Shown here in pieces: positions 8,812-63,228 of a stretch of DNA of 64,000 nt. The notes beneath the pieces were generated by a model. The model was given only the letters and a program-made list of their open reading frames with translations. It was not told where the DNA came from and made no database searches. The stretch comes from Mobula hypostoma (taxonomy: Eukaryota), in contig NC_086097.1 of assembly GCF_963921235.1 (NCBI RefSeq), forward strand, positions 134,728,001-134,792,000, given 5' to 3'. Position numbers and translations under genes: made by a program. Positions within the stretch are counted from its first letter, which is position 1. Each line of letters begins with the position of its first letter.

Positions 8812-8948
8812 ACACACACAAAATGCTGGTGGAACTCAGCAGGCCAGACAGCATCCACAGGAAGAAGCACAGTCAACGTATCGGGCCGAGACCCTTCATC
8901 AGGACTAACTGAAAGAAGAGATAGTAAGAGACTTGAAAGTGGGAGGGG
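8812..8948 (-). mobile_element. Penelope pLTR fragment with mutated hammerhead (8871-8906)
   Basis: Matches the pLTR of the Penelope elements at 22.4 and 40.6 kb. Confidence 0.8.
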
Positions 8949-22432: not shown

Positions 22433-22434
22433 AC

Positions 22435-24825
22435 AGACACAAGAAAATCCGCAGATGCTGGAAATCCAAAGCAACACACACAAAATGCTGGAAGAACCCA
22501 GCAGGCCATGCGGCATCTATGAAAAAGAGTAAACAGCTGACGTTTCGAGCCGAGACCCTTCGTCAGGACTGGAAAGGAAGGGGGAAGGTCAGAATAAGAA
22601 GGTGGGAGGAGGGGAGGAGGTGATGGGTGAAACTGGGAGGGGGAGGCGTGAAGTAAAGAGCTGGGAAGTAGATTGCTGGAAGAGATAAAGGGATGCAGAA
22701 GGGGAAATCTGATAGGAGAGGATAGAAGACCATGGAAGAAAGGGAGAAGGAGAAGCGCCACCCAGAGGGAGGTGATGGACAGGTAAGGAGATAAGATGAT
22801 GGGGGGAAAACAGGAATGGGGAATGAAGGGGAGGGGGCAAATACCGGTAGTTCAAGAAATCGATGTTCATGTGACCAGGTTGGAATCTAAGGTGTTGTTC
22901 CTCCAAACTGAATGTGGCCTCATCGCTGCAGTAGAGGCGGCCATGGACAGACATGTCAAAAGAGGGATGGAAAGTAGAGTTGGAATGGCTGGCTACTGGG
23001 AGATCAGGCTTCTTCTGGTGGACAGAGCAGTCTCCCAATCTACGTCAGGTCTCATCTGTTAACAGGTGCTCGGCAAAGCAGTCTCCCAATCTACGTCAGG
23101 TCTCATCTGTTAACAGAAGGCCACACCAGGAGAACCGGATACAGTAGATGACCCCAAAAGACTCACAGGTGAAGAGTCGCCTCACTTGGAAGGACTGTTT
23201 GGGGTCCTGAATGGTAGTGAGGGAGGTGATGTAGAGGCAGGTGTAGCACTTATTTCCCTTGCAAGGATAAGTGCCAGAAGGAAAATCAGTAGGGAAGGAC
23301 GAATGGACAAGGGAGTCATGTAGGGAGAGAAAGATGTGCTTGGTGGTGGGATGCCATTGGAGATGGCGGAAGTTACGAAGAATTATGTGCTGGACACGGA
23401 GGCTGGTGGAGTGGTAGGTGAGGACAAGAGGAACCCTATTTCTAACAGGGTGGCATGAGGATGGAGTGAAGACAGATGTGTGCGAAATGGAAGAGACATG
23501 GGCAAGGGTAGCATTGATGGTGGAGGAAGGGAAGTCCCTTTCTTTGCAGAAGGAAGTAATCTCTTTAGCTCTGGAATGAAAATTCTCATCTTGAGAGCAG
23601 AGACAGAGACTGAGGGAAGGGGATGGCATTTTTACAAGTGACAGGGTGGGAAGAGGTATAGTCCAAGTAGTTGTGAGAATCAGTGGATTTATAAAAGATA
23701 TCAGAAGATAGACTATCTCCAGAGATGGAGACAGAGATCAAGAAAGGGAAGAGAGGTTTTGGAAATGGACCTAGTAAATTTGAGGGCAGGGTAGAAGTTG
23801 GAGGCAAAGCTGATGAAGCCAACAAGCTCAGCATGGGTGCAGGAAGCAATACCAATGCAGTCGCCAATGTAGCGTGGGAAGAGTTGGGGAGTGATACCGG
23901 TGTAGGCTTGGAACGTGATAGCTGACAAAAAGGCAGGCATAGCTGGGACCTTTGCAAATGCCCATGGCTACACCTTTGGTTTGAAGGAAGTGGGAGGAAC
24001 CAAAGGTGAAATTATTGAGGGTGAAGATCAGTTCTGCCAGACGGAGGAGAGTGGTGGTGGAGGGGAAATGGTTTGGTCTGTTGTCCAGAAAAAAGCAGAG
24101 AGCTTTAAGGCCCTCCTAATGGAGCATGGACATCCAAAGTGAACTTTGGCCAGGGAACTTAAAAGTCTTTGGAAAAAATCAAGAGTGTGTAAAGTGTCAC
24201 AGATGTAGGTAGGAAGGGACTGAACCGGGGGATAAAACAGAATCGAGGTATGCAGATACAAGTTCAGCGGGGCAGGAACAAGCAGAAACTATGGGTCTAA
24301 CCGGACAGGCAGGTTTGTGGATCTTGGGTAGGAGGTAGAAATGGGAAGTGCAGGGCAAGGGAACTATGAGGATATATCCGTTGCTAAGTTCAGTGATAAT
24401 GTGGGAAACAATGGCCTGATGCTCTTTAGTGGGGTCCCGTTCGAGGGGTAAGTAAGGGGTGTCTGAGAGTTGTCGCCTGGCCTCAGCACGGTAGAGATCA
24501 GTCCCTCAGACTACTACAGCACCCCAACTTATCTGCAGGTTTGATGGTGAGGTTAGGATTAGTGCACTTGATGAGAGGCCTTAAAGTTTTTTTCCCCCCC
24601 AACATCAGTAAAGGTTTCACATTTATCTTCACATTTCAGCCCCCTCACTATCACCTGCCAGTTTGTACTCTTTCCCCTCCCCCACCTTCTTATTCTGGCT
24701 TCTAACATTCCTTCCTCATCCTGATGAAGGGTCTTGGCCCGAAATGTTAACCGTTTATTCCCCTCCATAGATTGCTGCATTCCTGTGTTGCTCAAGATTT
24801 CCAGCATCTGCAGAATCTCGTGTTA
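22435..24825 (-). mobile_element. Penelope-like retroelement (decayed RT + GIY-YIG) with a 3' pLTR and an inverted pLTR fragment at ~24620-24825
   Basis: RYIGDCIG RT motif, IFYKSTDSHNYLDYTSSHP, GVIYCIRFSWCG; frameshifted; ~51-nt tandem duplication at 23026-23116. Confidence 0.92.
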
Positions 24826-26188: not shown

Positions 26189-26460
26189 TAGCAGTTTTAT
26201 GTATCGTACTGCTGCAACAACAAAAAAAAACAAATTTCATGACATACGTGAGTGATGATAAACCTGATTCTGATATGGGTCTCTTTATGGAAGGGGACAG
26301 GGAGAGAGTAATCATTGTTGGTAAAAGGGGAAGAGAGAGAGGAATGCACAGGAAGCACCAGAGAGATATTCTGTAATCATCAATAAATCAATTGTTTGGA
26401 ATCAAATGACCTTGCCTGGTGTCTCAGGGCTGGGTGTGTCTGCACTCACACCACTCCCAA

Positions 26461-28092: not shown

Positions 28093-28152
28093 GCCATTCC
28101 CGACATTCTTTGCTCCAACCAGATTTTAAAAACTCGCTCTCCATTCTAAATA

Positions 28153-28230
28153 CAGTACTGTGCAAAAGTCTTAGAACTATATAAAATATATATATATAGT
28201 TGGGGTGCCCAAGACTTTTCCACAGTACTG
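28153..28230. mobile_element. Mini-MITE (Tc1/mariner-type, TA flanked)
   Basis: TIR cagtactgtgcaaaagtctt / aagacttttccacagtactg around an AT-rich core. Confidence 0.8.
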
Positions 28231-29069: not shown

Positions 29070-30251
29070 AATTTATTTATTTAGTGTTACAGTGCAGAGG
29101 CCTTTTCAGCCCTGCGAGCCATACTGCCTCAGTAACCCTGTACAACCCTGATCAACCCAACCAAACCACGGGACAACTTACAATGACCAGTTTACCTACA
29201 CGTTATGTCTTTGGACTGTGGGAGGAAACAGAAGGAACCGAAGAAACACCACACATTCCATGGGGAGGATGTACAGACCCTCCTTAAAGAACGGCGATGG
29301 AGATGACTGCAAGTTGTGGATAATGAGATAGATTTTCAAAGCTTGCAGAGAGATTTACACCACTTAGAAGAGTGGGCTGAAAGATGGCAGATGGAGTTTA
29401 ATGCTGATAAATGTGAGGTGTTACATTTTGGTAGGACTAATCAAAATAGGACATACATGGTAAATAGTAGGGCATTGAAGAATGCTGTAGAACAGACAGA
29501 TCTAGGAATAATGGTGCATAGTTCCCTGAAGGTGGAATCTCATGTGGATAGGGTGGTGAAGAAAGCTTTTGGTATGCTAGCCTTTATAAATCAGAGCATT
29601 GAGTATAGGAGTTGGGATGTAATGTTGAAATTGTATAAGGCATTGGTGAGGCCAGATTTGGAGTATTGTGTACAGTTTTGGTCACCAAATTATAGGAAAG
29701 ATGTCAACAAGAGAGTACACAGAAGATTTACTAGAATGTTGCCTGGGCTTCATCTCCTAAGTTACAGAGAAAGGTTGAATAAGTTAGGTCTTTATTCTTT
29801 GGAGCGTAGAAGGGGGGGGGACTTGATAGAGGTATTTAAAATTATGAGGGGGATAGATAGAGTTGACATGGATAGGCTTTTTCCATTGAGAGTTAGTGAG
29901 ATTCAAACAAGAGGACATGAGTTGAGAGTTAAAGGGCAAAAGTTTAGGGGTAACATGAGGGGGAACTTCTTTACTCAGAGAGTGGTAGCTGTGTGGAACG
30001 AGCTTCCAGCAGAAGTGAATGAGGCAGGTTCGATGTCATTTAAAGTTAAATTGGACAGCTATATGGACAGGAAAGGAATGGAGGGTTATGGGCTGAGTGC
30101 AGGTCGGTGGGACTAGGTGAGAGTAAGAGTTCAGCACAAACTAGAAAGGCCGAGATGGCCTATTTCCGTGCTGTAATTGTTATATGGTTATAAATTCCAG
30201 AACACCCTGAGCTGTAAGAGTCACGATAACCACTATGCTACAGTGGCACCC
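29070..30251 (-). mobile_element. V-SINE (HE1-like), split by the CR1 insertion
   Basis: V-domain revcomp ctttggactgtgggaggaaac at ~29210; tRNA-like head at 30195-30251. Confidence 0.7.
29305..30192 (+). mobile_element. Young 5'-truncated CR1 LINE, open C-terminal part of ORF2
   Basis: ORF 29316-30116: WQMEFNADKCEVLHFG...LVRPDLEYCVQFWSP...GDLIEVFKI...FFTQRVVAVWNELP. Confidence 0.95.
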
Positions 30252-32278: not shown

Positions 32279-34790
32279 TCAGAATCAGGATTATTATCAC
32301 TGGCATGTGTTGTGAAATTTGTTAACTTAGCAGCAGCAGTTTAATGCAATATATAATACAGAAGAGAAAAAATAATAATAAATCAATTACAGTATATGTA
32401 TATTGAATAGATTCAAAATCATGCAAAAAATATATTTAAAAGGTGAGGTGGTATTCACGGGTTCAATGTCCACTTAGGAATCAGATGGCAGAGGGGAAGA
32501 AGCTGTTCCTGAATTGCTGAGTGTGTGCTTTCAAGCTTCTGTACCTCCTTCCTGATGGTAACAGTGAGAAAAGGGCATGCCCTGGGTGCTGGAGGTCCTT
32601 AATAATGGACGTTGCCGTTCTCAGACACTGCTCCTTGAAGATGTCCTGGGTGCTTTGTAGGCTAGTATTCAAGATGGAGCTGACTAGATTTACAACCTTC
32701 TGCAGCTTCTTTCAGTCCTGTTCAGTAGCCCCTCCATACCAGACAATGATGTAGTCTGTCAGAATGCTCCCCACAGTACATCTATAGCAGTTTTTGAGTG
32801 TATTTGTTGACATGCCAAATCTCTTCAAACTCCTAATAAAATATAGTCGCTGCCTTGCCTTCTTTAAAACTGAATTGATATGTTGGGACCCAGTCAGGTC
32901 CTCAGAGATCTTGACACCCAGGAACTTGAAGCTGCTCTCTCTCTCCACTTCTGATCCTATGAGGATTGGTATGTGTTCCTTCATCTTACCCTTCCTTAAG
33001 TCCACAATCAGCTCTTTCATCTTATTGATGTTGAGTGCCAGGTTGTTGCTGCAACACCACTCCACTAGTTGGCATAGCCGCTCTGTACACTCTGTCATCT
33101 CCATCTGAGATGCTACCAACAATTATTGTATTGTCAGCAAATTTAAAGATGGTATTTGAGCTATGCCTAGCCACACAGTCATGGGTATAGAGACAGTAGA
33201 GCAGTGGGCTAAGCACACTCCCCTGAGGTGCGCCAGTGTTGATAGTGAGCGAGGAGGAGGTGTTATCACCAATCCGCACAGATTGTGGTCTTCTGGTTAG
33301 GAAGTCGAGAATCCAATTGCAGAGGGAGGTAGAGAGGCCCAGGTTCTGTAATATCCCAATCAGGATTGTGGGAATGATGGTGTTGAATGCGGAGCTATAG
33401 TCAATGAATAGCATCCTGACATGTTGTCCAGATGGTTTAAAGCCATGTGGAGAACCATTGAAATATTTGGCTGTCATCTGCTGTTGATCTATTGTGGCAA
33501 CAGGCAAATTGCAATGGGTCCAGATCCTTGCTGAGGCAGGAGTTCAGACGAGTCATAGCCAACCTCTCAAAGCATTTCATTGCTGTCGATGTGAGTGCTA
33601 CCGGGCAATAGTCATTAAGGCAGCTCACATTATTCTCCTTAGGCACTGGTATAATTGTTGCCTTTTTGAAGCAAGTGGGAACTTCCGCCTGTAGCAGTGA
33701 GAGGTTAAAGATGTCCTTGAATACTCCCGCTAGTTGGTTACACAAGCCTTCAGAGCCTTACCAGGTACTCCACTGGACCTTCCGCCTTGCGAGGGTTCAG
33801 CCGCTTTAAAAACAGCCTAACTTCAGCCTCTGACACAAAGATCACAGGGTCACCGGGTGCAGCAGGGATCCTCACAGCTGTCGTTATATTCTCCCTTTCA
33901 AAGAGGGATTAGAAGACATTGAGTTCATCCAGTAGTGAAGCATCACTGCCATTCATGATATTGAGTTCTGCTTTGTAGGAAATAATGTCTTGCAAACCCT
34001 GCCAGAGTTGTCGTACATCCAATGTCGCCTCCAACCTTGTTCAAAAATTGTCTCTTTGCCCTTGAAATAGCCATCTGCAAATCAAAACAACAGGAATTCT
34101 GCAGATGCTGGAAATTCAAGCAACACACATCAAAGTTGCTGGTGAACGCAGCAGGCCAGGCAGCATCTGTAGGAAGAGGTGCAGTCGACAAAGCCTGACG
34201 AAGGGTCTCGGCCTGAAACGTCGACTGCACCTCTTCCTACAGATGCTGCCTGGCCTCTTGCGTTCACCAGCAACTTTGATGTGTGTTATCTGCAAATCAA
34301 ACCTGGTTTTCTGGTACAGACCTGGGTCATCAGACTTGAATGCCACAGATCTAGTCTTCAGCAGATGATGTACCTCCTGGTTCATCCATGGCTTTTGGTT
34401 TGGAAATATACAGTAAATCTTTGTAGGCACACACTCATCCACACAGGTTTTAATGAAGTCGGTGACAACCGCAGCATACTCATCCAGATTCAAAGATGAA
34501 TCCCTGAATACAGTCCAGTCCACAGATTCAAAGCAGTCCTGTAAGCGCTCCTGTGCTTCCCTTGTCCAAACATTCTTGGTCCTCACTACTGGTGCTGCAG
34601 TCTTCGGTTTCTGCCTGTACTCAGGGAGTAGAAGTACAGCCAGGTGACCAGACTTCCCGGAGTGAGGGTGTGGGATAGCACGGTAGGCATTCTTGATAGT
34701 GGTGTGGCAATGGTCCAGTATGTTGTTTCCTCTAGTATTGCAAGTGATCAGTTGATAGTAATTGCTTAATGATTTTTTAGATTTGTGGAC
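32279..34790 (-). mobile_element. Rex1/Babar LINE, ~2.5 kb, endonuclease C-terminus through RT to 3' UTR
   Basis: [73 protein letters not shown]; frameshifted. Confidence 0.95.
34087..34287. mobile_element. Fold-back Penelope pLTR insertion with a 14-bp TSD
   Basis: TSD atctgcaaatcaaa at 34073-34086 and 34288-34301; two opposed pLTR arms. Confidence 0.9.
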
Positions 34791-34829
34791 ATATTCAATA
34801 AATCTAGAGAATTTGGGCATTCAAACTGT

Positions 34830-35227: not shown

Positions 35228-38200
35228 TGTAGGGTAACGTAATTGGTAGAAACATACATAATTCACAATCGCCGACTACTGCACTTGTTGTGTTCAGTGC
35301 TTGGAGTACAATAAATGAGTTGTTACGGTTTTTCTTAAACATAAAATGTCTCATTTTATTTGCAAAGACCTACATTGGTGATGCTGATGCTCTAGGACAA
35401 TTCTAGAATTATTAAACATGTCGGCCAATGCAGTCACCTTGAAACTGTCTGAGTTTTGGGAGTGAAATGCTGATCCCTGGTTTGTACAAGCTGAGACCCA
35501 ATTGACGCTGCGAGAAATCTCCGCCAACAACATCAAATATTTCTATATGGTTAGCGTTGCTCAGCAACGCCACGGCTGCAAGTGTGGTGAGTCTACTTGA
35601 ACGCCTTCCTCAACACGATAAATACTGATTACAGACTTTCGGGCAATCGGAATCTGAGCGTGCCAAATAGTTCTTCTCCCTGCCCAGCCTTGGCGATGCT
35701 AAGCCATTGGAGCTTATAGACCACGTGCTGTCTCTCCTGGGAAATCACCATCTTTTTTTATTAAAGAACTTTTCATGCAGCAAATGTACTCGCTAATGCA
35801 CCCGTGAATAACTATATGGAGCTTGACATATGGCTGATAGTGCACACTCAGCCAGGCAGCAGTGGATAATTCTCGTTTCCCTGTCTCAGTGACCCCGGTC
35901 AACAAGGCCTCCAACATAAGCACGCGAAACAGACTACCCTGGGTCTGTGTCTTTACCACGGTCTCTTTGGTATGAACACTTGGAGGTGCTGACTGCCTTG
36001 CAGCTTCGACAGTGCCAGCACGTTGGGACATCAGAGGTCTGTGAACACCAAGGGTTCCATTTGCTAGGGTCGTCTATTGTTCACTACGTTCACCCTTTCA
36101 GGGCGACATTTCCCGTGTGACACAGGTGCTGAAATATGTGCTGCCAGAATTGCCTATTGATGAGAAGGCAAAGAGCAATGAAACTTCGCTAGAGGCCACC
36201 GACGGCAGACGTACAGGACATGACGGTCTGCCCCAGTGAGTGACATTACACATGGGACTTTGTCCTGGCTAAAGTGGCTAGGCCTCTCCTCGGTGCAGTT
36301 TTCCCGTGTGCCCAAGGACGATTAGTTGGCCTTAAGAACTGCTGGCTTGTGGATGTCAAGGACTTTGGGTTGTTGCCTGCTGCCCAAGTAAGTTCCCCAC
36401 AACAACTCAGTCAAGAGCATGCACCACCGCTGTGAGTTTACCCGACTACTGGGCGAAATCCAAAACCTCAGCAAGCCCACATCGTGCACCGGTCAAATAG
36501 CCCCTGGGCTTCGCCCATGCCTGCGGTTCCTAAGTCCGATGGTGGTTGCCACCCATGTGACGATTACTGACACCCTAACAAGGTCACCGCGCCCAAATGT
36601 TAACCGTTTTCACACATCCGAGACTTTTCCGCACGTTTAGCCAGAAAGTTAATTTTCTCCAGAGTCGATTTAGTTAGGGGCTACTATCAGGTGCCTGTGT
36701 GCTCGGAGGATATTCCCAAAATGGCTGTGATAACCCCGTTTGGCCTCCTTGAGTGTCTATGCATGCTGTTTGGGCTGAAAAGTGCAGCACAGACTTTCCA
36801 AAGCCTTATGGACTCTGTACTAAAAGACTTACAGTAGATTTTCTTTCTGTTTACCTGGATGACGTACTCGTCACCAGTGCATCCAAATCCAAACACGTAT
36901 CCCATCTCCGCAGACTTTCCCAGGGCTTAAGCCAACACGGGTTGATTATTAACCCTGCTAAATGTCAGTTTGGGCTGTCAACCATTTACTTTGTCAGCCA
37001 ACGCATCTCTGCAGAAGGGACAAAGCCTTTCCCATCAAAAGTAGCTGCTATTACGGATTTCCCACCGCTCCGCACTACTACAGGTGTTTTCAAGGATGGT
37101 GAATTTCTATCACCGCTTCATTCTATGAGCTGCCGAACTTACACTCCTCCTGTATAGAGCGCTTAAGGGCAATACCCCTAATTAAGTGCTTGACTGGTCA
37201 GTGGACATGACCAGGGCATTTGATGATACCAAACGAGCTCTTTCCAATGCGACCCTTCTACCAGACCCGCTCCCTATCGCATCTAGAGCCATCACTACTG
37301 ACACGTTAGACTATGCTGTGGGTGCTGAGCACAAAGAGTTGGTTGAAGGTGTGGGACAACTGCTCTCTTTCTTCAGAAGGCAACTCCGTCCCCCCAAAAG
37401 GGAGTACAGCGCATTTGACTGTGAGCTTCTTGGTTTCTAGCTGGCTGTTCGCCGTTTTTGTCTTCTTCTAGAGGGTCGCCATTTTACAGCTTTCATTGAC
37501 CACAAAACCCTCATGCACGCGATGGCCAAAATATCAGACCCTTGGTCTGCACAGCAGCAATGCCAACTGGCCTATATATCCATAGTCATAGTCATACTTT
37601 ATTGATCCCGGGGGAAAATGGTTTTCGTTACAGTTGCACCATAAATAATAAATAGTAATAAAACCATAAATAGTTAAATAGTAATATGTAAATTATGCCA
37701 GTAAATTATGAAATAAGTCCAGGACCAGCCTATTGGCTCAGGGTGTCTGACCCTCCAAGGGAGGAGTTGTAAAGTTTGATGGCCACAGGCAGGAATGACT
37801 TCCTATGACGCTCTGTGCTGCATCTCGGTTCCGAGTTCACAACTGATATACAACGTATCAAGGGGGAAAATAATGCCGTGGCTGATGGTCTCTAATGGCT
37901 AGCCGTTGAGGCCTACACATAGAGGTTGGCTATGTTGTCATGGCAGCCAACCATGTTACTGACGCAGAGGTCCAGGATTACAGAACGGCAGTCACAGGCC
38001 TGCGGTTGGCTGACATTAAGTTTGGGGAAGCTGGGGTTTCTCTCCTGTGTGATACCTCAGCCGGTCTCCCTCACCCTCTAGTGCCCGCAAACTGGAAGCA
38101 AACTGTTCTTAACTCTGTATATGGCCTTTCAAATGCAGGCCAGAAGGCCTCACGTAAACTGGTTACACTAGAGTCTGTGTGCCAGGGCCTCAGAAAGGAT

Positions 38201-38630
38201 GTGCGTGATTGGACTGCAGCCTGTGTAGAGTGGCAGCGGGCAAAAATTAACCATCATGTCCAGGCGTCACTGGCACCTTTTGAAGTCCCTGAAATATGGT
38301 TTGACCATGTCAATGTGGACCTTGTTGCTCTTCTCCCCCACCCCCCCAACATGTTTCACACACCTCCTTAACATGTCGGACCATAGCACCAGAGGTCGTC
38401 CTTCTGGCATCGATGATGGGCCACAGATGCTGGCTTGGGTCGCTCGGTTTGGCACCCCATCTGATATTTCCCTTGACTGCAGTCCCCAATTCATATCAGA
38501 CCGCTGGGTTGCGATGGCCCAGAACCTCAGCATTAGGCCACATCACACCACAGCCCAATGGCCTGTGCGAGCGGTTTCACTGCTGCTGTGAGGGATTCCC
38601 AGACGAATGTGTGTTGGCACAATCGTCTCC
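35228..38630 (+). mobile_element. Decayed Ty3/Gypsy LTR retrotransposon (5' LTR, gag, PR, RT, RNase H, partial IN; 3' end lost)
   Basis: LTR tgtagg...cctaca 35228-35374, PBS-like tggtg; gag MSANAVTLKLSEFW at 35418; CDTGA protease; VDLVRGYYQVP, YLDD, TTDTLDYAVGA; integrase FDHVNVDLV. Confidence 0.93.
37581..37829 (-). mobile_element. LINE 3' end fragment inserted in the Gypsy RNase H region
   Basis: (catagt)n tail plus AATAAA on the minus strand; the Gypsy frame LAYI|SEFTTDI resumes after it. Confidence 0.8.
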
Positions 38631-39139
38631 TGTAGGTCTCATGATGTTCCTCCATGTTTTGATGGTCAAAGCGAACATAGAGGGCACTGAGCTCATCTGA
38701 AGTGAAGCCCTGCTGTCGCCTATATCACTTGACTTAAATTTATAAAAGGAGATAATATCCTAGCATTGCCACAACTATTGAGCATCCTTTGTTGATTCAA
38801 GTTTAGTCCGGAATTGCCAGTTTGCCCATGAAATGGCTTTCCAGAGATTGTACCTGGACTTCTTGAATCTTTCTTGGTTATCAAACTTGGATGCCTCTGG
38901 GTCTCATGGTTCATTCAGAGCTTCTTATGGAGGAAGACGGAATAATTTTTGTGGGGACACACTTGCCTACAACTGTTAAAATAAACTTCTTTGAGGCTTT
39001 CAGAGCCCAGTGAAGTCAGTGGCTTGTGTGATGTCCTGCGATATTTGCCTCCTCTCTGCTATATTGACTACGTAGCATCTAGTTGGGCAGCAAAAGGTGT
39101 AGATGGAGGCAATGGAGGGGAGACGAGCTATCGTGAGAC

Positions 39140-40597: not shown

Positions 40598-42763
40598 TAA
40601 ACACAAGGAATTCTGCAGATGCTGGAAATTCAAGCAACACACATCAAAGTTGCTGGTGAACACAGCAGGCCAGGCAGCATCTCTATGAAGAGGTACAATC
40701 AATGTTTCAGGCCAAGACCCTTTGTCAGGACTAACTGAAGGAAGAGCTAGAAAGAGATTTAAAAGTGGGAGGGGGAGAGGGAGATCCAAAATGATAGGAG
40801 AAGACAGGAGGGGGAGGGATGGAGCCAAGAGCTGGACAGGTGATTGGCAAAAGGGATATGAGAGGATCATGGGAGAGGAGACCCAGGGAGAAGGTAAAAG
40901 GGGAGGGGGGTAAAAAATCAGAGGATGGGCAAGGGGCATAATTTGAGGGACAGAGGGAGAAAAAAGAGAGAGAGAAAGAATGTGTGTATATAAATAAATA
41001 ATGGATGGGGTACGAGGGGGAGGTGGGGCATTAGCGGAAGTTAGAGAAGTCGATATTCATGCCATCAGGTTGGAGGCTACTCAGACGGAATATAAGGTGT
41101 TGTTCCTCCAACCTGAGTGTGGCTTCATCTTTACAGTAGAGGAGGCCGTGGATAGACATGTCAGAATGGGAATGGGATGTGGAATTAAAATGTGTGGCCA
41201 CTGGGAGATCCTGCTTTCTCTGGTGGACAGAGCGTAGGTGTTCAGCAAAACGATCTCCCAATCTGCATCGGGTCTCGCCAATATATAAAAGGCCACATCG
41301 GGAGCACCGGACGCAGTATATCACCCCAGTCAACTCACAGGTGAAGTGATGCCTCACCTGGAAGGACTGTCTGGGGCCCTGAATGGTGGTAAGGGAGGAA
41401 GTGTAAGGGCATGTGTAGCACTTGTTCTGCTTACAAGGATAAGTGCCAGGAGGGAGATCAGTGGGGAGGGATGGGGGGGGTCGAGTGGACAAGGGAGTCG
41501 CGTAGGGAGTGATCCCTGCGGAAAGCGGGGGGGGGGGAGGGAAAGATGTGCTTAGTGGTGGGATCCCGTTGGAGGTGGCGGAAGTTACGGAGAATAATAT
41601 GTTGGACCCGGAGGCTGGTGGGGTGGTAGGAGGATGGAGTGAGAGCAGATGTGCGTGAAATGGGGGAGATGCGTTTGAGAGCAGAGTTGATGGTGGAGGA
41701 AGGGAAGCCCCTTTCTTTAAAAAAGGAGGACACCTCCCTCGTCCTAGAATGAAAAGCCTCATCCTGAGAGCAGATGCGGCGGAGACGGAGGAATTGTGAG
41801 AAGGGGATGGCATTTTTGCAAGAGACAGGGTGAGAAGAGGAATAGTCCAGATAGCTGTGAGAGTCAGTAGGCTTATAGTAGACATTAGTAGATAAGCTGT
41901 CTCCAGAGATAGAGACAGAAAGATCTAGAAAGGAGAGGGTGGTGTTGGAAATGGACCAGGTAAACTTGAGGGCAGGATGAAAGTTGGAGGCAAAGTTAAT
42001 GAAGCCAATGAGCTCAGCATGCGTGCAGGAAGCAGCACCAATGCAGTCGTCGATGTAGTGAAGGAAAAGTGGGGGACAGATACCAGAATAGGCACGGAAC
42101 ATAGATTGTTCCACAAAGCCAACAACAATACAGGCATAGCTAGGACCCATACGGGTGCCCATAGCTACAACTTTAGTTTGGAGGAAGTGGGAGGAGCCAA
42201 AGGAGAAATTACTAAGAGTAAGAACTAATTCTGCTAGACGGAGCAAAGTGGTGGTAGAGGGGAACTGATTAGGTCTGGAATCCAAAAGGTAGCGGAGAGC
42301 TTTGAGACTTTCCTGATGGGGGTAGCCTCCAACCTGATGGCATGAACATTGACTTCTCTAACTTCCACTAATGCCCCACCTCCCCCTCGTACCCCATCCG
42401 TTATTTATATTCACACATTCTTTCTCTCTCTCTCCTTTTTCTTCCTCTGTCCATCTGACTATACCCCTTGCCCATCCTCTGGGTTCCCCCCCCCACTTTC
42501 CTTCTCCCTGGGCCTCCTGTCCCATGATCCTCTCATATCCCCTTTGCCAATCACCTGTCCAGCTCTTGGGTCCATCCCTCCCCCTCCTGTCTTCTCCTAT
42601 CATTTTGCATCTCCCCTTCCCCCTCCCCCTTTCAAATCTCTTACTAGCTCTTCCTTCAGTTAGTCCTGACAAAGGGTCTCAGCCCGAATCGTCAACTGTA
42701 CCTCTTCCTAGAGATGCTGCCTGGCCTGCTGCGTTCACCAGCAACTTTGATGTGTGTTGCTTG
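40598..42763 (-). mobile_element. Penelope-like retroelement, 5'-truncated, with ~440-bp inverted pLTR ends and a 14-bp TSD
   Basis: RT VAMGTRMGPSYAC...HYIDDCIG (41458-42285); GIY-YIG GVIYCVRCSRCGLLYIGET...RFAEH (41031-41885); 42322-42763 is the inverse of 40631-41080; TSD ttgcttgtcatgca at 40584-40597 and 42757-42770. Confidence 0.96.
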
Positions 42764-45090: not shown

Positions 45091-45889
45091 ACTTCTCCCC
45101 ATAACCCTTAAACCCTTTACAAATAAAGAAACTATCAATTTCTGCCTTAAAAGCACCCAATGACTTGGTCTCCACAGCCTTATGTGGCAACGAATCCCAC
45201 ATATTCATCAGCCTCCAGCTGAAGAAATTGCTGATCATCTCAATTTTGACGGGAAGCTATGTTCTCAGATTTTTGACACTCCCACTCTGTCTAGGCCTTT
45301 CTGTATTCAGGTTTCAATGAGAACACCACCCACAACACCACCTCCCCCCCTCCCCATGTCCTGCTGTACTCCATCAAGTACAGGCCCAGAGACATCAAAC
45401 ACTCTTCATACGTTAAACCTTTCAATCTTGAGACCATTCTTCTGAACCCCCTCTGGATCTCTCTATGGCCAAATACGGCCCGACCAATACATTCATATAA
45501 AGTCTCACTAGTACATCCTTGCTGTTATATTCTAGTGCTCTCAAAATGAATTAGTAACCTTTCTTATTCTTTCTAGAAAAAATTGTTCACTCTCTTCTCC
45601 TATCAGATTCCTTCTTCTTTTCCACCTATCACCTGCCACCTTCTCACTCCACCACCCTCCCCACGCAGTAGACTTCACCTACCACCTGCCAGCTAGTACA
45701 CTCCTCGCTCCTCCCCACCCCCCTTCTTATTCTGGCTTCTTCCCCTTTCCTTTCCAGTCCTGATAAAAGGTTGCAGCCCAAAAAATATTGATTATTTATT
45801 CCATTAATGCTGTGTTCTGCCAACATTTTGTGTGTGTTATGTAGAATTTATATTTTGTGTTTTTCTCGTGAATGCTGGTTATATGATTA

Positions 45890-45925: not shown

Positions 45926-46341
45926 ATGCTGCTGCAAGTAAGTTTTGCAATGCACCTGTGCATAATTACAATTTTGACCTCTTAAACATTAAAAGTATTG
46001 ATATTAAAATGTACAACAGATTAACCTGTGAATTTTTAAAATGAAAATTGTAAATATATAACAATAACTACCACTATATTCAGAAAGTTATCCTAAGGAA
46101 GTTCCACTTTTGTTCTGGTAGCAGTATTATTGTGTGAATTTAATTCACCACATAATGCATTTGGTTACTAGATTAGTATTTTACAAAGCAGACAGTTGTT
46201 GTTAAAGCTATGAAATCTCAGCTATACATGCCGCAAGTAACTCTGTTCCATTGATGCAGTTGTGTCTTAAAAATGAGAATGCAATATTTCATTAAAAACA
46301 ATATAATTTTGTGCAATAATTAAGTAAATGTTCAAGATCAT

Positions 46342-46715
46342 CACTCACAGCACGCTGGAGGAACTCAGCAGGTCGGGCAGCATCAGTGGAAACGAGGAGT
46401 CGACGTTTCGGGCCGGAACCCTTCGTCAGGACTGAAGAAAGAAGGAGGGGGAAGGATTTGAAGAATGCTTGTAGGTTCAGTTGAAAAACCAGTAATTTGA
46501 AAGACAAAGGGGTAGGGGAAGGGAAGCAGGGACGTCATAGGCAGGAAAACAATGGGTAGTAGAACAAGGAGGCGGAATCATGAGAGAGGTGATAGGCAGC
46601 TGGGGGAGGGGGCAGAGTGAAATAGGGATAGAGGAAGGGAGGAAGAGGGAATTACCGGAAGTTGGAGAATTCTATGTTCATACCAAGGGGCTGGAAATTA
46701 TCTGCAGACTATTTT
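46342..46715 (-). mobile_element. Young Penelope pLTR insertion with a perfect 14-bp TSD
   Basis: TSD atgttcaagatcat at 46328-46341 and 46716-46729; CpGs retained. Confidence 0.88.
46398..46433 (-). ncRNA. Minimal type I hammerhead ribozyme, intact
   Basis: AGUC-CUGACGA-A-GGG(UUCCGG)CCC-GAAACGUC-GACU: catalytic core, stem I AGUC/GACU, stem II, palindromic ACGU stem III. Confidence 0.85.
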
Positions 46716-47029
46716 ATGTTCAAGATCATACCAAGTGTAATTCACCCACCCCTCTCTGCTTGCTGATCTATAAGAGCTGCCAAGGTCCTGAACTTAAAAA
46801 ATCTCATCCCAGATTTCAAATTCTTTCCTATCCTCATCATGCCCCAAATCTCTAATCGCCTGCAGCCTTTCAAACTTCTCAGGACAAATGGTTCAATAAT
46901 AACATTTACTGATGATAGCAAATATCAAGAGAAAGTAAAACTAACCCTGAGGAAGAATGCAACTTGATGCGAGATGCTCTCAGGAAACGTCAAGAAGTGG
47001 GGTTTGAGTGATAAATGGGCTTTAACACA

Positions 47030-51062: not shown

Positions 51063-51352
51063 AACACAAGAAAGTCTGCAGATTTGGAAAATCCAAAGCA
51101 ACACACACACAAAATGCTGGAGGAACTCAGCAGGTCAGGCAGCATCTGTGGAAAAGAGTAAACAGTCGATGTTTTGGGCTGAGACCCTTCATCAGGACCT
51201 GCTAGTTCACCTCTCATGGATCCTGATGAAGGATATCGGCTGGAAACATCGACTGTGCTCTTTTCCATAGATGCTGCCAGGCCTACTGAGTTCTTCCAGC
51301 ATTTTGCGTGCGTTGTTTGGATTTCCAGCCTTTGCAGATTTTCTCCTGCTTG
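51063..51352. mobile_element. Fold-back (head-to-head) Penelope pLTR pair
   Basis: Minus arm 51063-51198 and plus arm 51219-51352, each ending at the hammerhead. Confidence 0.85.
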
Positions 51353-52094: not shown

Positions 52095-52455
52095 AATGGC
52101 ATGAACATCAATTTCTCGAACTTCCAGTAATGCCTCCCCTCTCTTTCACCAGTCCCCATTCCTGTTTCCCTTTCTCACCATATGTCCTTACCTGCCCATC
52201 ACCTCCCTCTGGTGCTCCTCCCCTTGCCTTTCTTTCATGGTCTTCTACCCTCTCCCATCAGATTCCCCCCTTCTTCAGCTCTTCATCTCTTTCACCTAAC
52301 AACTTTCCAGCTCTTTACTTCATCCCCTCCTCCACCTTTTTACTCTGACTTCTCCCCTTCCCTTCCAGTCCTGATGAAGAGCCTTAGCCCAAATCATTGA
52401 CTGTTTACTTTTTTCCATAGATGCTGCCTGGTCTGCTGAGTTACTCCAGCATCTT
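52095..52455 (+). mobile_element. Penelope pLTR fragment (another, minus-strand, at 52748-52872)
   Basis: Matches the pLTR; decayed hammerhead at 52367-52402. Confidence 0.8.
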
Positions 52456-53559
52456 CTCATGTTCAGAATATGAGGCGCTGGTCACCTAGTTTGTGTTTAG
52501 CCTCACGCTGGTAGTAGAAGAAGCTGAGGACAGACAAGTCCTTGGGAATGGAGGGGCAATTTGAAATGGATTGCATCTGGGAGCTTAAGATGACCTCCAC
52601 GGAGAGAACGCAGGCACTAGTCAAAGCAGTTGCCTAGTCTGTGTTCAGTCTTGCCACTGCAGAGGAGATCCAACATCTAACTGTACAGCCGAACCTTGGG
52701 AAATTCAGGACTGAAGACCTTTCATGAAATTACTTACACTTTTGTTACAAACGAGAGAAAATCTGCAGATGCTAGAAATCCAAGCAACACACACAAAATG
52801 CAGGAGGAACTCAGCAGGCCAGGTAGCATCTTTTGAAAAGAGTACAGTCAATGTTTCAGGCCAAGACCCTTCCAGAGCTCTGGAGCAGGTCAGAGGTGGA
52901 ACAGAGGGAGACCGCCAAAGATATTTGAAAACAAGGTTATGAATTTAAAATTGAGCTATTCCTGAAAATATGGGCTCATGCAAGTGTGACCTTCCCATAA
53001 AGCTGCTCAAAAAGATCACTGGATAAAAATAAGATAGAACTTAGTATAGTGCAGCACAGGAACAGACCCTTCAGATCACGATGCTGTGTTGAACTATGAA
53101 ACTGGTAAATAAATGCCAAACTAAACTAATTCCTTCTGCTCTCACATGATCCTTATTCCTCCATTCTCTGCATACTCGTGTGCCTATCCAAGAACACTGC
53201 TATCATATCGGCCTCCACTACCACCCCCGGCAGCACATTCCAAGTACCCACCACACACTGAGAAAAAAACAATTCGCCCCACACACCTCCTTTGAACTTA
53301 ACTCTTCCACCTTAAATACAGACCCTTTAATATTGGACATTGTGACCCTGGGAGAAATATACCAGCTGTCTACTCAATCTATGCTTCTCATCATCTTATA
53401 AACCTCGACCAGGGCTCCCCCTCAACCTCCACCACTCCAGAGAAAACAACCTGGTCTGTCCATCCTCTCCTTACAGCACAGGCAGCGTCCTGGCAAACCT
53501 CTTCTGCACCCTCTCCAAAGCCTCCTCATTTGTCCTATAGTGAGGTGACTGGAATTTCT

Positions 53560-57082: not shown

Positions 57083-57388
57083 CTAAATGCTGAATGAAAG
57101 AAACAAGGGCCACCTGCATGACAAGCAACACACATCAAAGTTGCTGGTGACCGCAGCAGGCCAGGCAGCATCTCTAGGAAGAAGTACAGTTGACGTTTCG
57201 GGCTGAGACCCTTCGTCAGGACTAACTGAAGGAAGAGGTAGTAAGAGATTTGAAAGTGGGAGTGGGAGATCCAAAATGATAGGAGAAGACAGGAGGGGGA
57301 GGGATGGAGCCAAGAGCTGGACAAGTGATCGGTAAAAGGGATATGAGAGGATCATGGGACAGGAGGCCCAGGGAGAAGGAAAAGGGGG
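57083..57388 (-). mobile_element. Penelope pLTR plus 39 nt of flank, copied from 42489-42802
   Basis: Reverse-complement match that continues across the element/flank junction. Confidence 0.9.
57188..57223 (-). ncRNA. Minimal hammerhead ribozyme (core intact, one stem I mismatch)
   Basis: AGUC CUGACGA AGGGUCUCAGCCC GAAACGUC AACU. Confidence 0.7.
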
Positions 57389-58619
57389 AAGGATCCTCTC
57401 TTAGTTTTACCACATCACCATATCTTAGTTTTATAGCGGAGTCTAGTGGCACCAATTCTATCCTTGAAGTCTTCTGGATCAAACTCAATTGTTTTGTACA
57501 AGAGAAGTTCATCATGAGCTAAAGGCACGTCTTTAATCGGTATCAGAAATGAGGACATGACCAGCTGAATTCACAAGGCTGTCTGAAATTTAATGAACAG
57601 GTTAGGGCAGCACTTGAAAATCAGTCTGAGCTGTAAGCATGAAGAAGGTGTGAGAGTGTTGGTTGTCCATTGTATTCCCTTGCAGAATTTGATTCCGTTG
57701 ACTCTGCTGTACATTAGATATTTTAATCTCCCCTTCTCCCGCACCCCAACCCTTCCCATACAACAATAAAGAGACAGACAGACACACACACAAAAAGCTG
57801 ACCTTCATTAGCTAATGCATAAGATACAAGAGCACAGTGCTTTTGATACAAAACATTGGCTGGATTGAACCTTGAGCAGTCTGTGCAGGTCACCAATCTT
57901 TAGGATGAGACTGCACAAGGAGGATTCACCTCCAGGTTCCCTGGGATGGATTGTTGAGGAGAGAGTGGAAGGGTTGGGTTTGTTTTCCTTGGAGTGCAGT
58001 GCAGGAGACTGAGGAGTGATCTGATTTACTGCCGTTATGAGAGGCATAGACATAGTGAATGGCAAGAGACTTTTCCCCATAATTGAGGCATCTTTGGTTT
58101 AAAGGTGTAATTGGATTAGAGAGGATCTGAAGATTTCATTTTTCACCCAAAGATGGCTGCAACCAGGAACACAATGCCTGAGAAGGTATTGAAGGGTGGT
58201 ACTCACCTGATATTTAAAAACTATCTGGTCAAGCACTTGAATCAGCAAGGCATTGAGGATTGTCATTTCTTCACAGCTATATGTGAACCTCTCCCTCTCC
58301 CACTAACACACTTTAAATTACAACTTAATGTGTAAGTGAAGTCCTACTGAGAAGGGCAATGAAGTCTGTCATTTCCTCAGAGACTGTTCCCTTTTAGCTA
58401 CTGGAGTGCAAATCTTGTTTCGTGCATTGTACCCATGTTACAAAAAGAATTCACAGGTTACATTTATCTGCAGAAGGAACTTTACTGGCAGCGTTGGCAC
58501 ATTAGATTACAACAATATTGGGAGGCAAAGGTCGAGGGAACTCTCAGAACAGCAGAAGGAGCAAGTGTTTCCAGGGGAACCAGTGGAATGAGGAAGGACT
58601 AGACATTGAGGACAATAGG

Positions 58620-59160: not shown

Positions 59161-59549
59161 TCTTCACACCGAGGCACCGGAAAAGAGGTATCTTTCCAAC
59201 ACAAAACATATTTAATATTGGGAGGTGCAGCAGTGCCGCCCAATCCCATGCACATTTCTGTACTGGAAATTCAACGTTGTTGTTTCATCACTGCTGGAGC
59301 TTAATTCTGAAACTCTCTCTCCAGATCACTGTGACAACACCTTCAGTCATTGTTCATGGGCATCTTCAGATAGCACCTAGCGTTCACAGCATTTTACATT
59401 GACACTGATTGCATTTAATCATGAAAATGATCAGCTGAGGGGTTGAGATTGTCCATTTAACTCAGTACCTCTACAAGGAAATTGCAGACTCCTCAACTCC
59501 CATATGTCAGGAATGGCTTTGAACTGAGCCACAGAGAATCTGATATCCT

Positions 59550-62500
59550 GGTGCCTTCCACAAATTTGCTGATCCAATTAACCACATTATCAGCCAGATC
59601 ATTGAAGTGGATGACAACAAACCCAGCACTGATCCCTGCAGCACACCACTAGTCACAGGTCTCCAGTCAAAGAGGCATCCGTCCACAACCGCATGCTGGC
59701 TTCTCCCACAAAGCCAATGTCTAATCCTATTTATTACCTCATCTTGAATGTCAAGTGACTGAACCTTCTTGACCAACCTCCTGTGTGGGACATTGTCAAA
59801 TTCCTTGTTAAAGTCCATGCAGACAATATCCACTGCCTTGCCTGCATCAACTTTCCTCGTAACTTCCTCAAAAAAACTCCATAACACAACCTACACACAT
59901 GAAGCTATGCTGACTATCCAGAATCAGTCCATGTCTATCCAAATACTAATAGATCCGGGCCCTTAGAGTACCTTCCAATAACTTTCCCATTATTGATGAC
60001 AGGATCATTGGCCTATAATCTCCTGGCTTATTTTTAGAGCCTTTCTTAAAAAGCAGAACAACATTGGCTATCCTCTGGTACCTCACCTATCACTAAGGAT
60101 GATTTAAATATCTTTGCTTGGGCCTGGCAACTTCTGCACTTGCCTCCCACAGGTAATGAGGGAAGACCTTGTCAGACCATGGGGGATTATCCACCCTAAT
60201 TTGTCTCAAGACAGAAACACCTCCTCCTCTGTAATCTGTATAGGGTCCATGAAGTAAGTCCATGAAGTAAGTTTATCTCACTTCTATAGTCTCTGCATCC
60301 ATCTCTTAAGAAATACAGATGCAAGAAATTAATTTAAGATCTCCCCCATCTCTTTTGGCTCCATGTGTGGATCACCAGTTTGATCTTCCTGAGGACCAGT
60401 TTTGTCCCCCACAATCCTTTCGCTCATAACATACCTGTAGAATCCTTCGGGATTCTCCTTCACCTTGTCCGCAAGGGCAACCTCATGCCCCTATTTTAGC
60501 CTTACTGAATTCTTTCTTACGTGCTCTCTTGTATTTCTTATACTCCAGAAGCACCTCATTTATTCCTATCTGCCTTTACCTGCTCCGCACCTCCTTTTTG
60601 TTTCTTAACCAGGTCCTCAATATCTCTTGAAAACCAAGGCTCCCTAAACCTGTTATCTTTACCTTTTATTCTGACAGGCATATACAAGCTTTCTACTCTC
60701 AAAATTTCACTCTTGAAGGCCTCCCACTTACCAAGTACACCTTTGCCAGAAAACAGCCTGTCAAATTCACACTTGCCAGATCCTATCTCTCTCATTGGGA
60801 CTTCTACATACTGATTAAGGAATCTTTCCTGAATACATTTCACTAACTCTATCCCATCTAGTCCTTTTACAGTATGGGAGTCCCAACTAATATGTGAAAA
60901 ATCATCTACTATAACAGCCTTACGTTTCTTGCAACAGTCTGCGATCTCCACAAATTTGTTCCTCTAAATCCCTAGGGCTGTTGGGTGGCCTGTAATATAG
61001 CACCATTAACTTGGTCTTACCTTCATTATTCCTCAGTTCCACCCATAATGCCACACTGGATGAGTTCTCCAGTCTGTCCTGACTGAGTACTGCCATGAGA
61101 TTTTCCCTGGCTAGTAACGCCACCCCTCCTATTTGTTGATCCATGCCTCGAGCTCATATGTCTTTCCTATGATACTTCTCGCATTGAAAATATATGCAGC
61201 TCAGGACATTAGTCACACTATGCTCAACTTTTTGGTTCCTGACTTTAAGGTCTTTTTTTTTAATTTTATTTTTATTTGGATAATGTATTCACAAGTAATA
61301 CACAAACTTTTTTTTACATATATAAGCTTTTCCATTTTTTGTGTGAGTAAATCTATATTAATTTGTACATTCACAAGTGCACATTGAGATAATATAGAAA
61401 ATAATTAGGCACTTAAATAGATGTTTATGTGCAATTTTAATTCCACTCTATTAAACTAAATAATGATAATAGTTGTTATAAAAATATTAATAATAGTGGT
61501 TGAATACTAATTTCCATGTATCTCTTCCAGTCCATTTCTTTCTGGTCCAAAATTTCCCCAGATCTTTTCTTTACTTGTGTAATTCCACATTTTCCAAAAA
61601 AAAGAGCAGTAAACATTCCAGCCAAGGGTGCTTATGTTAAGACTATTACTATGTTGGTGAGACAAACAGTATAAACCATTAGGAGAGTCATCTAAAGTCT
61701 GCTTGCTCTGGGGTTATAAATTCAATCCATTTATTCCAAATTTGATAACATTTTTCCTTTTGAATTCTCAGAGAGTAGGTCATCTTTTCCATTTTAAATA
61801 TTTCCAAAATGATTTCACGCCAATCTTCTAATGTAGGTGACGTTGGATTTAACCACTTTCTGGTGATTGATTTCTAACTGGCTGCTAAAAGGGCCTGCAG
61901 CAGCTTTATATCTTTCTTCTGTTCAAAAAACAATACATACCCCAAGTACAGAGTCTCAAAGTTCAGAGGTATCTGAGTCTTAAATACCTTAACTAATGTT
62001 CTGTGAATACCTTCCCAATATAAACTTAATTTAGGGAAATCCCAAAAAATATGGAAATGATTTGCCTCCTTGGAGCCACACCTTCTCCAACACGCCACGT
62101 TTGTATCTTTATATTCTTCCTGGTATGGGGTCTTGAAGTATCTTATAATATTTTTCCAACAATGTTCTCTCCAAATCAAAGAGTTAGTCGAAGACCACTG
62201 GAAGCTGCATATTTTCCCCCAAGCCTCCTCTGAAAGTACCAACCCCACTTCTTTCTCCCACTTCTCTTTAATATACAATGTGTTTTCATTTTTGGCATGA
62301 GAGAGGGCATTATGTAATTGAGAAATTGATTTACTTGGTATTGAACTGTAAGCCGAATTCAGAATCTTGAAAAATTCTAATTCTACTGTTGGTAAGTACA
62401 ACTCTGTTGATATCTACAACTCTGGTTAACATGATGTTGTACTTGAAGGCACCTAAAAAAAGTCATTGTATTTGGCCATGTTTGTCCTGCAAGGACTGAA

Positions 62501-63228
62501 AACTTTGTAATACACTTTTATGTGTGAATGAGAGGTAAGTTGTAAGACCTTTCTTTATCCACATTTCAAATCTTTTATCTCTTCTGCTGGGAAGAAATTC
62601 GGTAATTTTTAATGTGAGATTTATCCAGCTGTTTTTAAACTTTTCCAATTGGGCCATCAATCCTTTGTCAGCTATTGAGGCCTGTAGAGGAAAACTGTCA
62701 ATCAATCCAAATTCTATTTCCTTCCATCTAGCCTTATATTCCCTATTACACCAATATAACAGAGGGGTTATCTGTGAAGCATAAAAATAATTTCTCAAAC
62801 AAGGAAGTGCCAAACCTCCTCCTTCCTTTCCTAACTGTAAGGTGTTAAATCGGATCCTAGGTTTATTTCCTTGCGGGAAATCCATTTGTCCCATTCCCTG
62901 AATTGATTATCATCCACCTCCACAGTTAAAGTCCGGAAAAGGTAAAGTAACCAAGGGAGAATATTCATTTTTATGGTATTTATCCTTGAATTTAAACTTT
63001 AAAAGGGGATAAGATTCTACCTATGTATATCTGCTTTTATCTCGGAAACTAATGGCCCATAATTTACCTGTGACAATATTGAAAGATCTTTTGGTAGGGT
63101 TATTCCTAAATATTTTAGTAATTTAGCTTCCCACTTAGACTTTGAAGTCTTAAGAACATCTGTCTCTATAGTCTCTTCGCGATCTGCTCTGGCACTCTGG
63201 TTCCCATCCCCCTGCAACTCTAGTTTAA
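59550..63228 (-). mobile_element. Decayed CR1 LINE (endonuclease + RT) interrupted by an L1
   Basis: GGVALL...WVELRN...YYRPPNS; VDIVCMDFNKEFDNVPH...VTSGVLQGSVLG; resumes after 63151. Confidence 0.88.
61255..63137 (-). mobile_element. 5'-truncated L1-clade LINE (ORF2 C-terminus, zf-RVT, poly-A)
   Basis: KYLGITLP, GGLALPCLRNYFYA, CWRRCG...HFHIFW; poly-A at 61255; TSD gacttt(aag/gaa)gtctt at 61241-61254 and 63138-63151. Confidence 0.92.

What the first reader, a model, noticed from the sequence alone, without database searches (positions are those of the whole stretch)
46398..46433. Penelope terminal repeats carry minimal hammerhead ribozymes (at least 12 copies, one perfect)
Seen: the minus strand reads AGUC-CUGACGA-A-GGG(UUCCGG)CCC-GAAAC-GUC-GACU. 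That is the hammerhead core with stem I (AGUC/GACU), stem II, and a loopless palindromic stem III (ACGU) that could only close by pairing two copies. The motif sits at the same pLTR position at 8871-8906(-), 22535-22570(-), 24717-24752(+), 34191-34226(+), 40697-40732(-), 42662-42697(+), ~45756(+), 51163-51198(-), 51218-51254(+), 52367-52402(+) and 57188-57223(-). The stem II loop differs between subfamilies (UCUCGG vs UUCCGG) while the stem is kept; many other changes are CpG decay. Established: Penelope-like elements carry minimal, dimer-cleaving hammerheads. Inference: this chondrichthyan genome carries a very large ribozyme load, some sense to the host intron (8871, 22535).
Basis: partly seen in the sequence, partly recalled or inferred. 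Interest (0 to 1): 0.75.

Follow-up and report, generated by a model that had tools for sequence, protein, structure and literature searches.

The report
Penelope retrotransposon ends carrying minimal hammerheads
This is a real, intact copy of the tiny RNA motif, predicted to cut itself, that Penelope-type jumping genes are already known to carry in their end repeats; an estimated 350,000 copies litter this genome, most of them broken or without a partner, so they likely do little cutting.

Summary
The motif is real. All 12 listed sites are there, plus a 13th; only 46398-46433(-) is fully intact. It is the minimal type I hammerhead of Penelope-like retrotransposon end repeats (pLTRs), described in 2014 (PMC4209133), and it fits the published consensus. 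The focal copy lies in a 374-bp truncated stub between 14-bp target duplications. Full-length 3.5-kb elements with a 1,016-aa RT/GIY-YIG ORF carry the motif in both repeats. Genome-wide there are an estimated 350,000 copies, about 45,000 of them exact intact ones. The motif is far better conserved between subfamilies than its flank (93% vs 43%), but shows no compensatory changes. The 'ribozyme load' is mostly fossil: paired copies in the window lie on opposite strands, the monomer is predicted to fold into an inactive rod, and copies read across the cut site. Copy 5' ends pile up at the motif's first bases, about five times more than at the cut site, which points to a transcript start there and to uncut templates. 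The youngest subfamily has fixed a G·U pair at 10.1/11.1. The host-intron claim was not confirmed. The scan has reported this family, and the 5'-end pile-up, before in this and other genomes.

The parts
46398..46433 (-). Intact minimal type I hammerhead motif: stem I 46433-46430 with 46401-46398; core CUGACGA 46429-46423; extra A 46422; stem II and UCCG loop 46421-46410; GAAA 46409-46406; loopless palindromic stem III 46406-46403; predicted scissile bond between 46402 and 46401
   Evidence: consensus in PMC4209133 supplement
46342..46715 (-). Focal insertion: 5'-truncated pLTR stub (last codons of the endonuclease ORF, 3' UTR, hammerhead, about 57 nt beyond the cut site), with a roughly 20-nt inverted piece of the element's tail at its 5' end (read by eye)
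46328..46341 (+). 14-bp target-site duplication, left copy
46716..46729 (+). 14-bp target-site duplication, right copy
8871..8906 (-). Decayed copy (core A14 changed) in a short solo stub, 8808-8948
22535..22570 (-). Copy with intact core but a mismatch beside the cut site; end of an old RT/EN fragment reaching to about 24565; head-to-head with 24717(+)
24717..24752 (+). Decayed copy (stems I and III broken)
34191..34226 (+). Youngest-subfamily copy (U11.1) that starts at -29, so the 5' strand of stem I is lost; hairpin insertion 34085-34288 with an inverted arm starting at -3
40697..40732 (-). Decayed copy (G8 changed) at the 3' end of the RT/GIY-YIG fragment; head-to-head with 42662(+)
41031..42357 (-). 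Frameshifted, 5'-truncated Penelope-like ORF: RT C-terminal part, C-x4-C-x2-C linker, GIY-YIG endonuclease
   Evidence: (GIY-YIG E=0.0016, under the Pfam cut-off)
42662..42697 (+). Decayed copy (G8 and A15.1 changed), inverted arm
45756..45791 (+). Old decayed copy with an insertion; a separate insertion converging on the focal one
51164..51199 (-). Decayed copy (G12 changed); arm starts at -31; hairpin pair with 51219(+)
51219..51254 (+). Decayed copy (stems II and III broken); arm starts at -30
52367..52402 (+). Decayed copy (core changed)
52846..52881 (-).
57188..57223 (-). Copy with intact core and a mismatch beside the cut site; shares its 3' flank with the 42662 copy, so not an independent insertion

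Best explanation
The motif is a minimal type I hammerhead sequence in the end repeat of a very abundant Penelope-like retrotransposon (likely Neptune type), and it likely cuts RNA only in the parent element's transcript, slowly and with help from a second copy or the element's own protein. Shown: the motif sits in both repeats of full-length 3.5-kb elements, about 140 nt before the ORF start and 65-102 nt before the copy's 3' end; nearly every insertion ends downstream of it and so carries it. Inferred: transcription starts at the motif's first bases; the protein binds the conserved block just downstream and starts reverse transcription at +65 or +102; it copies through the uncut motif and often runs off the RNA 5' end near -31, which leaves stubs and head-to-head hairpins. 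Cleavage would be a side step (release or circularisation of a unit from tandem RNA, or switching a transcript off) and not needed for most insertions. Genomic copies, this one included, are passengers that decay and likely do little to host RNA.
For: Architecture matches the published consensus in every column. Motif in both direct repeats 3,512 nt apart around a 1,016-aa RT + GIY-YIG ORF in L073, same layout in L080. 36-mer 93% identical between four subfamily majorities vs 43% upstream and 53% just downstream. 3' ends: 60 of 126 at +60..+74 and 47 of 126 at +95..+104, the two-start 'tail' described in PMC11167929. 5'-junction counts: -31: 2,339; -30: 1,073; -20: 88; -5: 90; cut site +1: 357; +5: 201 against 106,214 anchors. 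7 of 10 cut-site starters examined abut an inverted partner arm ending at -25..-37, where stem I gives microhomology. Predicted monomer fold is a rod that pairs the core with the cut site; the double hammerhead is about 9 kcal/mol above two monomers. Published: no monomer activity, low dimer activity; Anolis ribozyme needs the protein and is not needed for insertion in vitro.
Against: No cleavage was measured for this family. No compensatory base-pair change in the 13 window copies or between subfamily majorities, so conservation is of sequence and could reflect a promoter or protein site. The transcript start is inferred from copy ends only; position -32 was not counted genome-wide. Corrected for pattern stringency, +1 is about 2-2.5 times its neighbours, so a small cleaved fraction is not excluded. 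The -31 and -30 patterns also catch an older subfamily (6 of 30 loci examined at -31). Neptune placement rests on the cysteine linker, with no tree.
Confidence: 0.8

Rival explanations
1. Active genome-wide load: tens of thousands of intact copies cut host pre-mRNA, in trans between any two copies or with host chaperones, and so shape transcripts.
For: About 45,000 exact intact motifs (8,564 + 36,060). Stems are identical among copies, so trans dimers are possible in principle.
Against: In the window 1 of 13 copies is intact, and its nearest same-strand neighbours (40697, 51164) have broken cores. Pairs are on opposite strands. The dimer is predicted to be disfavoured. Low activity is published even for designed dimers.
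Confidence: 0.1
2. The 36-mer is conserved as a transcription-start and protein-binding element and has lost, or never needs, catalysis in this lineage.
For: No covariation. 5' ends pile up at its first bases. The youngest, most uniform subfamily fixed U at 11.1 in 52 of 52 copies, weakening the best-conserved stem II pair. Naiad elements spread without canonical hammerheads (PMC8557442 passages).
Against: The conserved letters are exactly the catalytic core, both stems and the palindrome, and the variable ones are N7, the loop and 11.1. G·U at 10.1/11.1 occurs in published PLE hammerheads of cichlids, coelacanth and Xenopus. The Anolis motif cleaves with protein.
Confidence: 0.12
3. Cleavage is central: two hammerheads 3.5 kb apart cut out a unit that is ligated into a circle, and the circle is the main template (Cervera and De la Pena model). 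Copies read across the cut site because it was re-ligated.
For: Full-length L073 and L080 carry more than one unit (upstream repeat reaching 416 and 530 nt 5' of the first cut site). L075 is almost exactly one permuted unit.
Against: A circle has no end at -31, yet that is the strongest 5' junction measured. Tandem read-through RNA explains more-than-unit copies as well. In Anolis uncut RNA is the main substrate in vitro.
Confidence: 0.2
4. The pile-up at -31/-30 comes from a 3' splice site (pyrimidine tract plus AG at the motif's 5' edge, as in Drosophila virilis Penelope), not from a transcript start.
For: All subfamily majorities have a pyrimidine tract and AG at the motif's edge; PMC4209133 describes this for D. 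virilis.
Against: 0 of 30 copies starting at -31 carry a shared upstream exon: 15 abut their own inverted arm, and at least five are clean solo stubs with target duplications, by eye.
Confidence: 0.08

Closest known systems
Minimal hammerheads (min-HHR) in pLTRs of metazoan Penelope-like elements (Cervera and De la Pena 2014, PMC4209133; parts 1-2 of 4 of the main text and part 2 of 3 of the supplement read)
   Same: Type I, U/pyrimidine-rich 5' flank, CUGANGA plus one extra base, G at 10.1, GAAA, loopless palindromic stem III, UH, short stem I; in both pLTRs about 3 kb apart; most copies single and truncated; opposite-strand pairs 100-700 bp apart already noted.
   Different: Stem II is 4 bp with a YYCG loop, shorter than the 7-8 bp of Schistosoma. 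Copy number is far higher (about 45,000 exact intact here vs about 4,000 in coelacanth and 9,000 in Xenopus, by different methods). No shark, skate or chimaera term was found in the searchable supplement file (one of two files was not searched).
Poseidon element PAc of Anolis carolinensis (Frangieh et al. 2024, PMC11167929; parts 1-2 of 4 read)
   Same: Hammerhead in the pLTR upstream of two RT start sites that define a 30-40-bp tail; insertion from uncut RNA.
   Different: In PAc the ORF starts inside the ribozyme; here the first Met lies about 140 nt after the cut site, and the protein has a cysteine linker of Neptune/Nematis type.
Neptune-clade EN+ Penelope-like elements (Craig et al. 2021, PMC8557442; passages)
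   Same: RT then C-terminal GIY-YIG, CX2-5CxxC linker, pLTR, inverted 5'-truncated copy, optional tail.
   Different: No difference found; clade not tested by a tree.
Non-LTR retrozymes of animals (bioRxiv 10.64898/2026.07.22.740005; first fifth and passages read)
   Same: Type I hammerhead derived from PLE pLTRs; reported in one chondrichthyan genome.
   Different: Retrozymes are head-to-tail tandem arrays; the window's copies are solo or head-to-head stubs of an autonomous element.

Membership tests
Minimal type I hammerhead of metazoan PLEs | Catalytic core CUGANGA...GAAA...UH | tested here: met
   focal copy; 6 of 13 window copies keep it
Minimal type I hammerhead of metazoan PLEs | Extra nucleotide between 9 and 10.1, and a G10.1-C11.1 pair | tested here: met
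   focal copy has both; the youngest subfamily has G·U, also seen in published examples
Minimal type I hammerhead of metazoan PLEs | Loopless palindromic stem III (15.2-16.2) | tested here: met
   ACGU in the focal copy and in the majorities of all younger subfamilies
Minimal type I hammerhead of metazoan PLEs | Located in both pLTRs of an RT/EN element | tested here: met
   L073 and L080
Minimal type I hammerhead of metazoan PLEs | Covarying stems across families | tested here: inconclusive
   no compensatory change; stems nearly invariant; only this one family group was found by the descriptor
Minimal type I hammerhead of metazoan PLEs | Self-cleavage after UH as a dimer or with protein | not testable with these tools
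   needs an in vitro assay; the genomic footprint of cleavage is weak
Rfam hammerhead families | Score against the curated models | tested here: not met
   expected for a form without stem III, so it lowers only the claim 'canonical hammerhead'
EN+ Penelope-like element | Single ORF with RT and C-terminal GIY-YIG | tested here: met
   1,016 aa; RVT_1 E=2e-05 and GIY-YIG E=0.0023, both under Pfam cut-offs
EN+ Penelope-like element | pLTRs, inverted 5'-truncated arm, 30-40-bp tail | tested here: met
Neptune clade | CX2-5CxxC linker between RT and EN | tested here: met
   C-x4-C-x2-C in the window ORF; shared with Nematis per PMC8557442
Neptune clade | Placement in an RT phylogeny | not tested
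   no reference PLE proteins were fetched
Non-LTR retrozyme | Head-to-tail tandem units, each with a hammerhead | tested here: not met
   no such array among the 13 window copies

The most novel reading that the evidence does not exclude
The genome holds a fossil record showing that the Penelope transcript begins at the hammerhead's first base and is copied uncut: the hammerhead is a normally-off switch at the capped end of the RNA, whose cut would remove the cap at the 5' repeat and the RT-start region at the 3' repeat, and the latest burst of amplification came from a lineage that fixed a weaker G·U pair and so cut itself less.
Probability: 0.25. Interest if true: 0.55.

Novelty: new member of a known kind. 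Interest (0 to 1): 0.22.

Why it matters
The motif and its setting are published, so the finding itself is ordinary. Its value is scale and statistics. The role of the hammerhead in Penelope elements is still open (PMC8557442 and PMC11167929 passages), and a genome with over 100,000 young copies lets one count where templates began and ended. Those counts favour uncut templates and a transcript start at the ribozyme's edge. The fixed C-to-U change in the youngest subfamily gives a natural pair of variants for a cleavage assay. I found no paper describing these motifs in sharks or rays in searches, but the library lacks most subscription journals and Lunse et al. 2016 was not available.

Tried and rejected
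Rfam: no hammerhead match. Covariation: none. Sequencing runs: no RNA holder listed; 22 runs listed, 18 only guessed to be RNA, all kept as contigs. Laid on window 3500-23400 they showed no spliced host exon among the joints shown (15 of 843). Laid on the L073 repeat, some contigs bridge the cut site and no splice joint at the motif's edge was among the 15 of 26 joints shown. Contigs cannot show ends, strand or level, so none of this is used as evidence. Host gene: Pfam on 288 stop-to-stop frames outside repeats gave nothing convincing near 8.9-22.5 kb. One M20 dipeptidase-like stretch at 63.6 kb(-) and one at about 64.8 kb(-) turned up; no later exon was found with recalled motifs, so a gene spanning the window is not shown. 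Splice-site origin of the -31 peak: no shared upstream exon in 30 loci. CpG decay as the cause of U11.1: rejected, 52 of 52 copies have it while the four other CpGs are 85-92% intact. U11.1 as a novelty: weakened by published G·U examples. The last tally had a coding error and was redone. The exon-guessing script was uninformative. Lunse et al. 2016 was not held and is known only through a review section. One of two supplement files of PMC4209133 was not searched, its figures are not readable, and bioRxiv supplements are closed, so a shark or ray example in print is not excluded.

Full report
Observation. The minus strand at 46433-46398 reads as reported. An ungapped scan finds all 12 listed sites with 0-13 mismatches to the 36-mer, two with coordinates off by one, and a 13th at 52846-52881(-). 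Six of the 13 keep the catalytic core; only the focal copy also keeps stems I, II and the palindromic stem III (45756 judged). Controls are clean: 98 hits in 864 kb vs 0 in reversed sequence, 22 descriptor hits vs 0 in reversed and five shuffled sets. Rfam does not score it.

What carries it. In 30 loci with an exact motif, the end of a GIY-YIG ORF, where present upstream on the same strand, lies about 200-300 nt from it. A search with the window's RT fragment found copies with open frames over 1,000 codons. I fetched 20 of the longest. L073 and L080 have the motif in both direct repeats. In L073 the unit is 3,512 nt cut to cut and the ORF is 1,016 aa with RT and GIY-YIG matches under Pfam cut-offs. 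The linker has C-x4-C-x2-C, which PMC8557442 ties to Neptune and Nematis elements (passages). The focal copy is a stub between 14-bp target duplications at 46328 and 46716. Four pairs in the window are head-to-head on opposite strands: 22535/24717, the hairpin at 34085-34288, 40697/42662 and 51164/51219. No window insertion puts two motifs on one strand.

How many. Exact full motifs: 8,564 with C11.1 and 36,060 of the single U11.1 sequence. Core pattern ending CGAAACGT: 28,491 vs 70 for the control. In 60 evenly spaced 10-kb stretches there are 61 copies, about 102 per Mb, or about 350,000 in 3.48 Gb (roughly 270,000-450,000 by Poisson, my arithmetic; only large contigs were sampled). Nine of those 61 pass all criteria, 8 with U11.1 and 1 with C11.1.

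Conservation. Between majority sequences of four subfamilies (built from 40, 7, 6 and 24 copies; 162 of 305 copies were unclassified and left out) the 36-mer is 93% identical, 31 of 36 columns invariant. Upstream identity is 43%, +5..+20 is 53%, and a second block at +21..+50 is 82%. The variable places are N7, the loop, 11.1 and one CpG in the old subfamily. There is no compensatory change, so structure is supported by pattern, not by covariation. The youngest subfamily (95.5% mean pairwise identity in 32 copies vs 88.4% in 15 of its older sister) has U at 11.1 in 52 of 52 copies while four other CpGs are 85-92% intact; 19 of the 20 long-ORF loci have it at their 3' repeat. G·U at this pair also appears in published cichlid, coelacanth and Xenopus examples (supplement text).

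Does it cut? Nothing here measures cleavage. Folding predicts a rod in which the core pairs with the cut site (-11.9 kcal/mol; the stem I+II form has probability 0.0008), and a double hammerhead at -14.7 against -23.8 for two monomers (nearest-neighbour model, no Mg2+ or tertiary contacts). The monomer is no more stable than shuffles (z -0.9). Published minimal PLE hammerheads show no monomer activity and low dimer activity (PMC4209133). The Anolis one cleaves only with the element's protein and is not needed for insertion in vitro (PMC11167929).

Copy ends. Among 126 copies covering the downstream anchor, 3' ends cluster at +60..+74 (60) and +95..+104 (47) (references end at +104), the two-start tail. 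So cDNA normally starts past the motif and reads across the scissile bond. To count 5' ends I asked for five non-matching bases before a given position. Counts were -31: 2,339; -30: 1,073; -20: 88; -5: 90; +1: 357; +5: 201; the anchor alone gives 106,214. Dividing by the chance of passing each filter (0.24, 0.24, 0.11, 0.16, 0.24, 0.24 at equal base frequencies) and taking 24 of 30 of the -31 hits as the young family gives about 7,900 at -31, 1,500 at +1 and 600-850 at the three controls. The anchors differ between patterns, so these are rough. The +1 excess is small and partly artefactual: 36 of the first 100 hits have the five bases expected from stem I microhomology (counted by eye), and 7 of 10 loci examined abut an inverted partner arm ending at -25..-37. 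At -31, 15 of 30 loci abut their own inverted arm, at least five are clean solo stubs with target duplications, and none shares an upstream exon. In the local sample 14 of 41 young-family copies start between -44 and -29. The simplest reading is an RNA 5' end at the motif's edge. PLE promoters lie in the pLTR (review PMC6765202, section read), and the edge resembles an initiator element (consensus recalled, not tested). The lead for the -31 test came from earlier notes; similar notes exist for this genome. They are not independent support.

Host gene. Not confirmed. Pfam scans of 288 frames and the laid contigs gave no exon near 8871 or 22535. Only dipeptidase-like stretches at the window's right end, on the minus strand, were found. 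Both named copies are defective in any case. The organism was not identified here; earlier notes call it ray-like.

Comparison and verdict. The focal motif fits the published consensus for metazoan PLE minimal hammerheads in every column and its carrier meets the tested features of an EN+ Penelope-like element. It is a new member of a known kind. Literature searches found no description in sharks or rays beyond retrozymes in one chondrichthyan (preprint passages), with the limits given under Tried and rejected. What adds something is the scale, the evidence for uncut templates that start at the ribozyme's edge, and the fixed G·U variant in the youngest lineage. Interest 0.22.

Noticed in passing
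window 63565-63741(-) and about 64,830(-), just beyond the window end: Two exon-like stretches resembling carnosine dipeptidase (peptidase M20; best PDB match E=1e-4). No later exons found, so possibly a diverged gene or a pseudogene.
   Followed up: partly
window 36604-38700(+): Decayed fragments with RT, RNase H and integrase zinc-binding matches, as in an LTR retrotransposon.
   Followed up: no
window 26300-28180: GC-rich tandem array that keeps long frames open on both strands.
   Followed up: no
pLTR +21..+50, e.g. window 46352-46381(-): Second block conserved between subfamilies (82%), just upstream of the two 3' ends; a candidate binding site for the element's protein.
   Followed up: partly
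L074:6889 and L075:3178: Near-full-length arms whose 5' ends fall at +103 and +62 of the upstream repeat, the same places where 3' ends cluster; L075 is almost exactly one permuted unit.
   Followed up: no
G000:C2:12242897-12243221: Three motifs on one strand 145 bp apart: a retrozyme-like head-to-tail array, the layout in which a double hammerhead could form.
   Followed up: no
window 57122-57396(-) and 42320-42763(+): The two copies share the same 3' flank, so one is a local duplicate of the other.
   Followed up: partly
window 29307-30116(+), 32712-34820(-), 59507-60963(-), 61874-62906(-): Fragments of other non-LTR retrotransposons, judged from their translations and one RT match.
   Followed up: no
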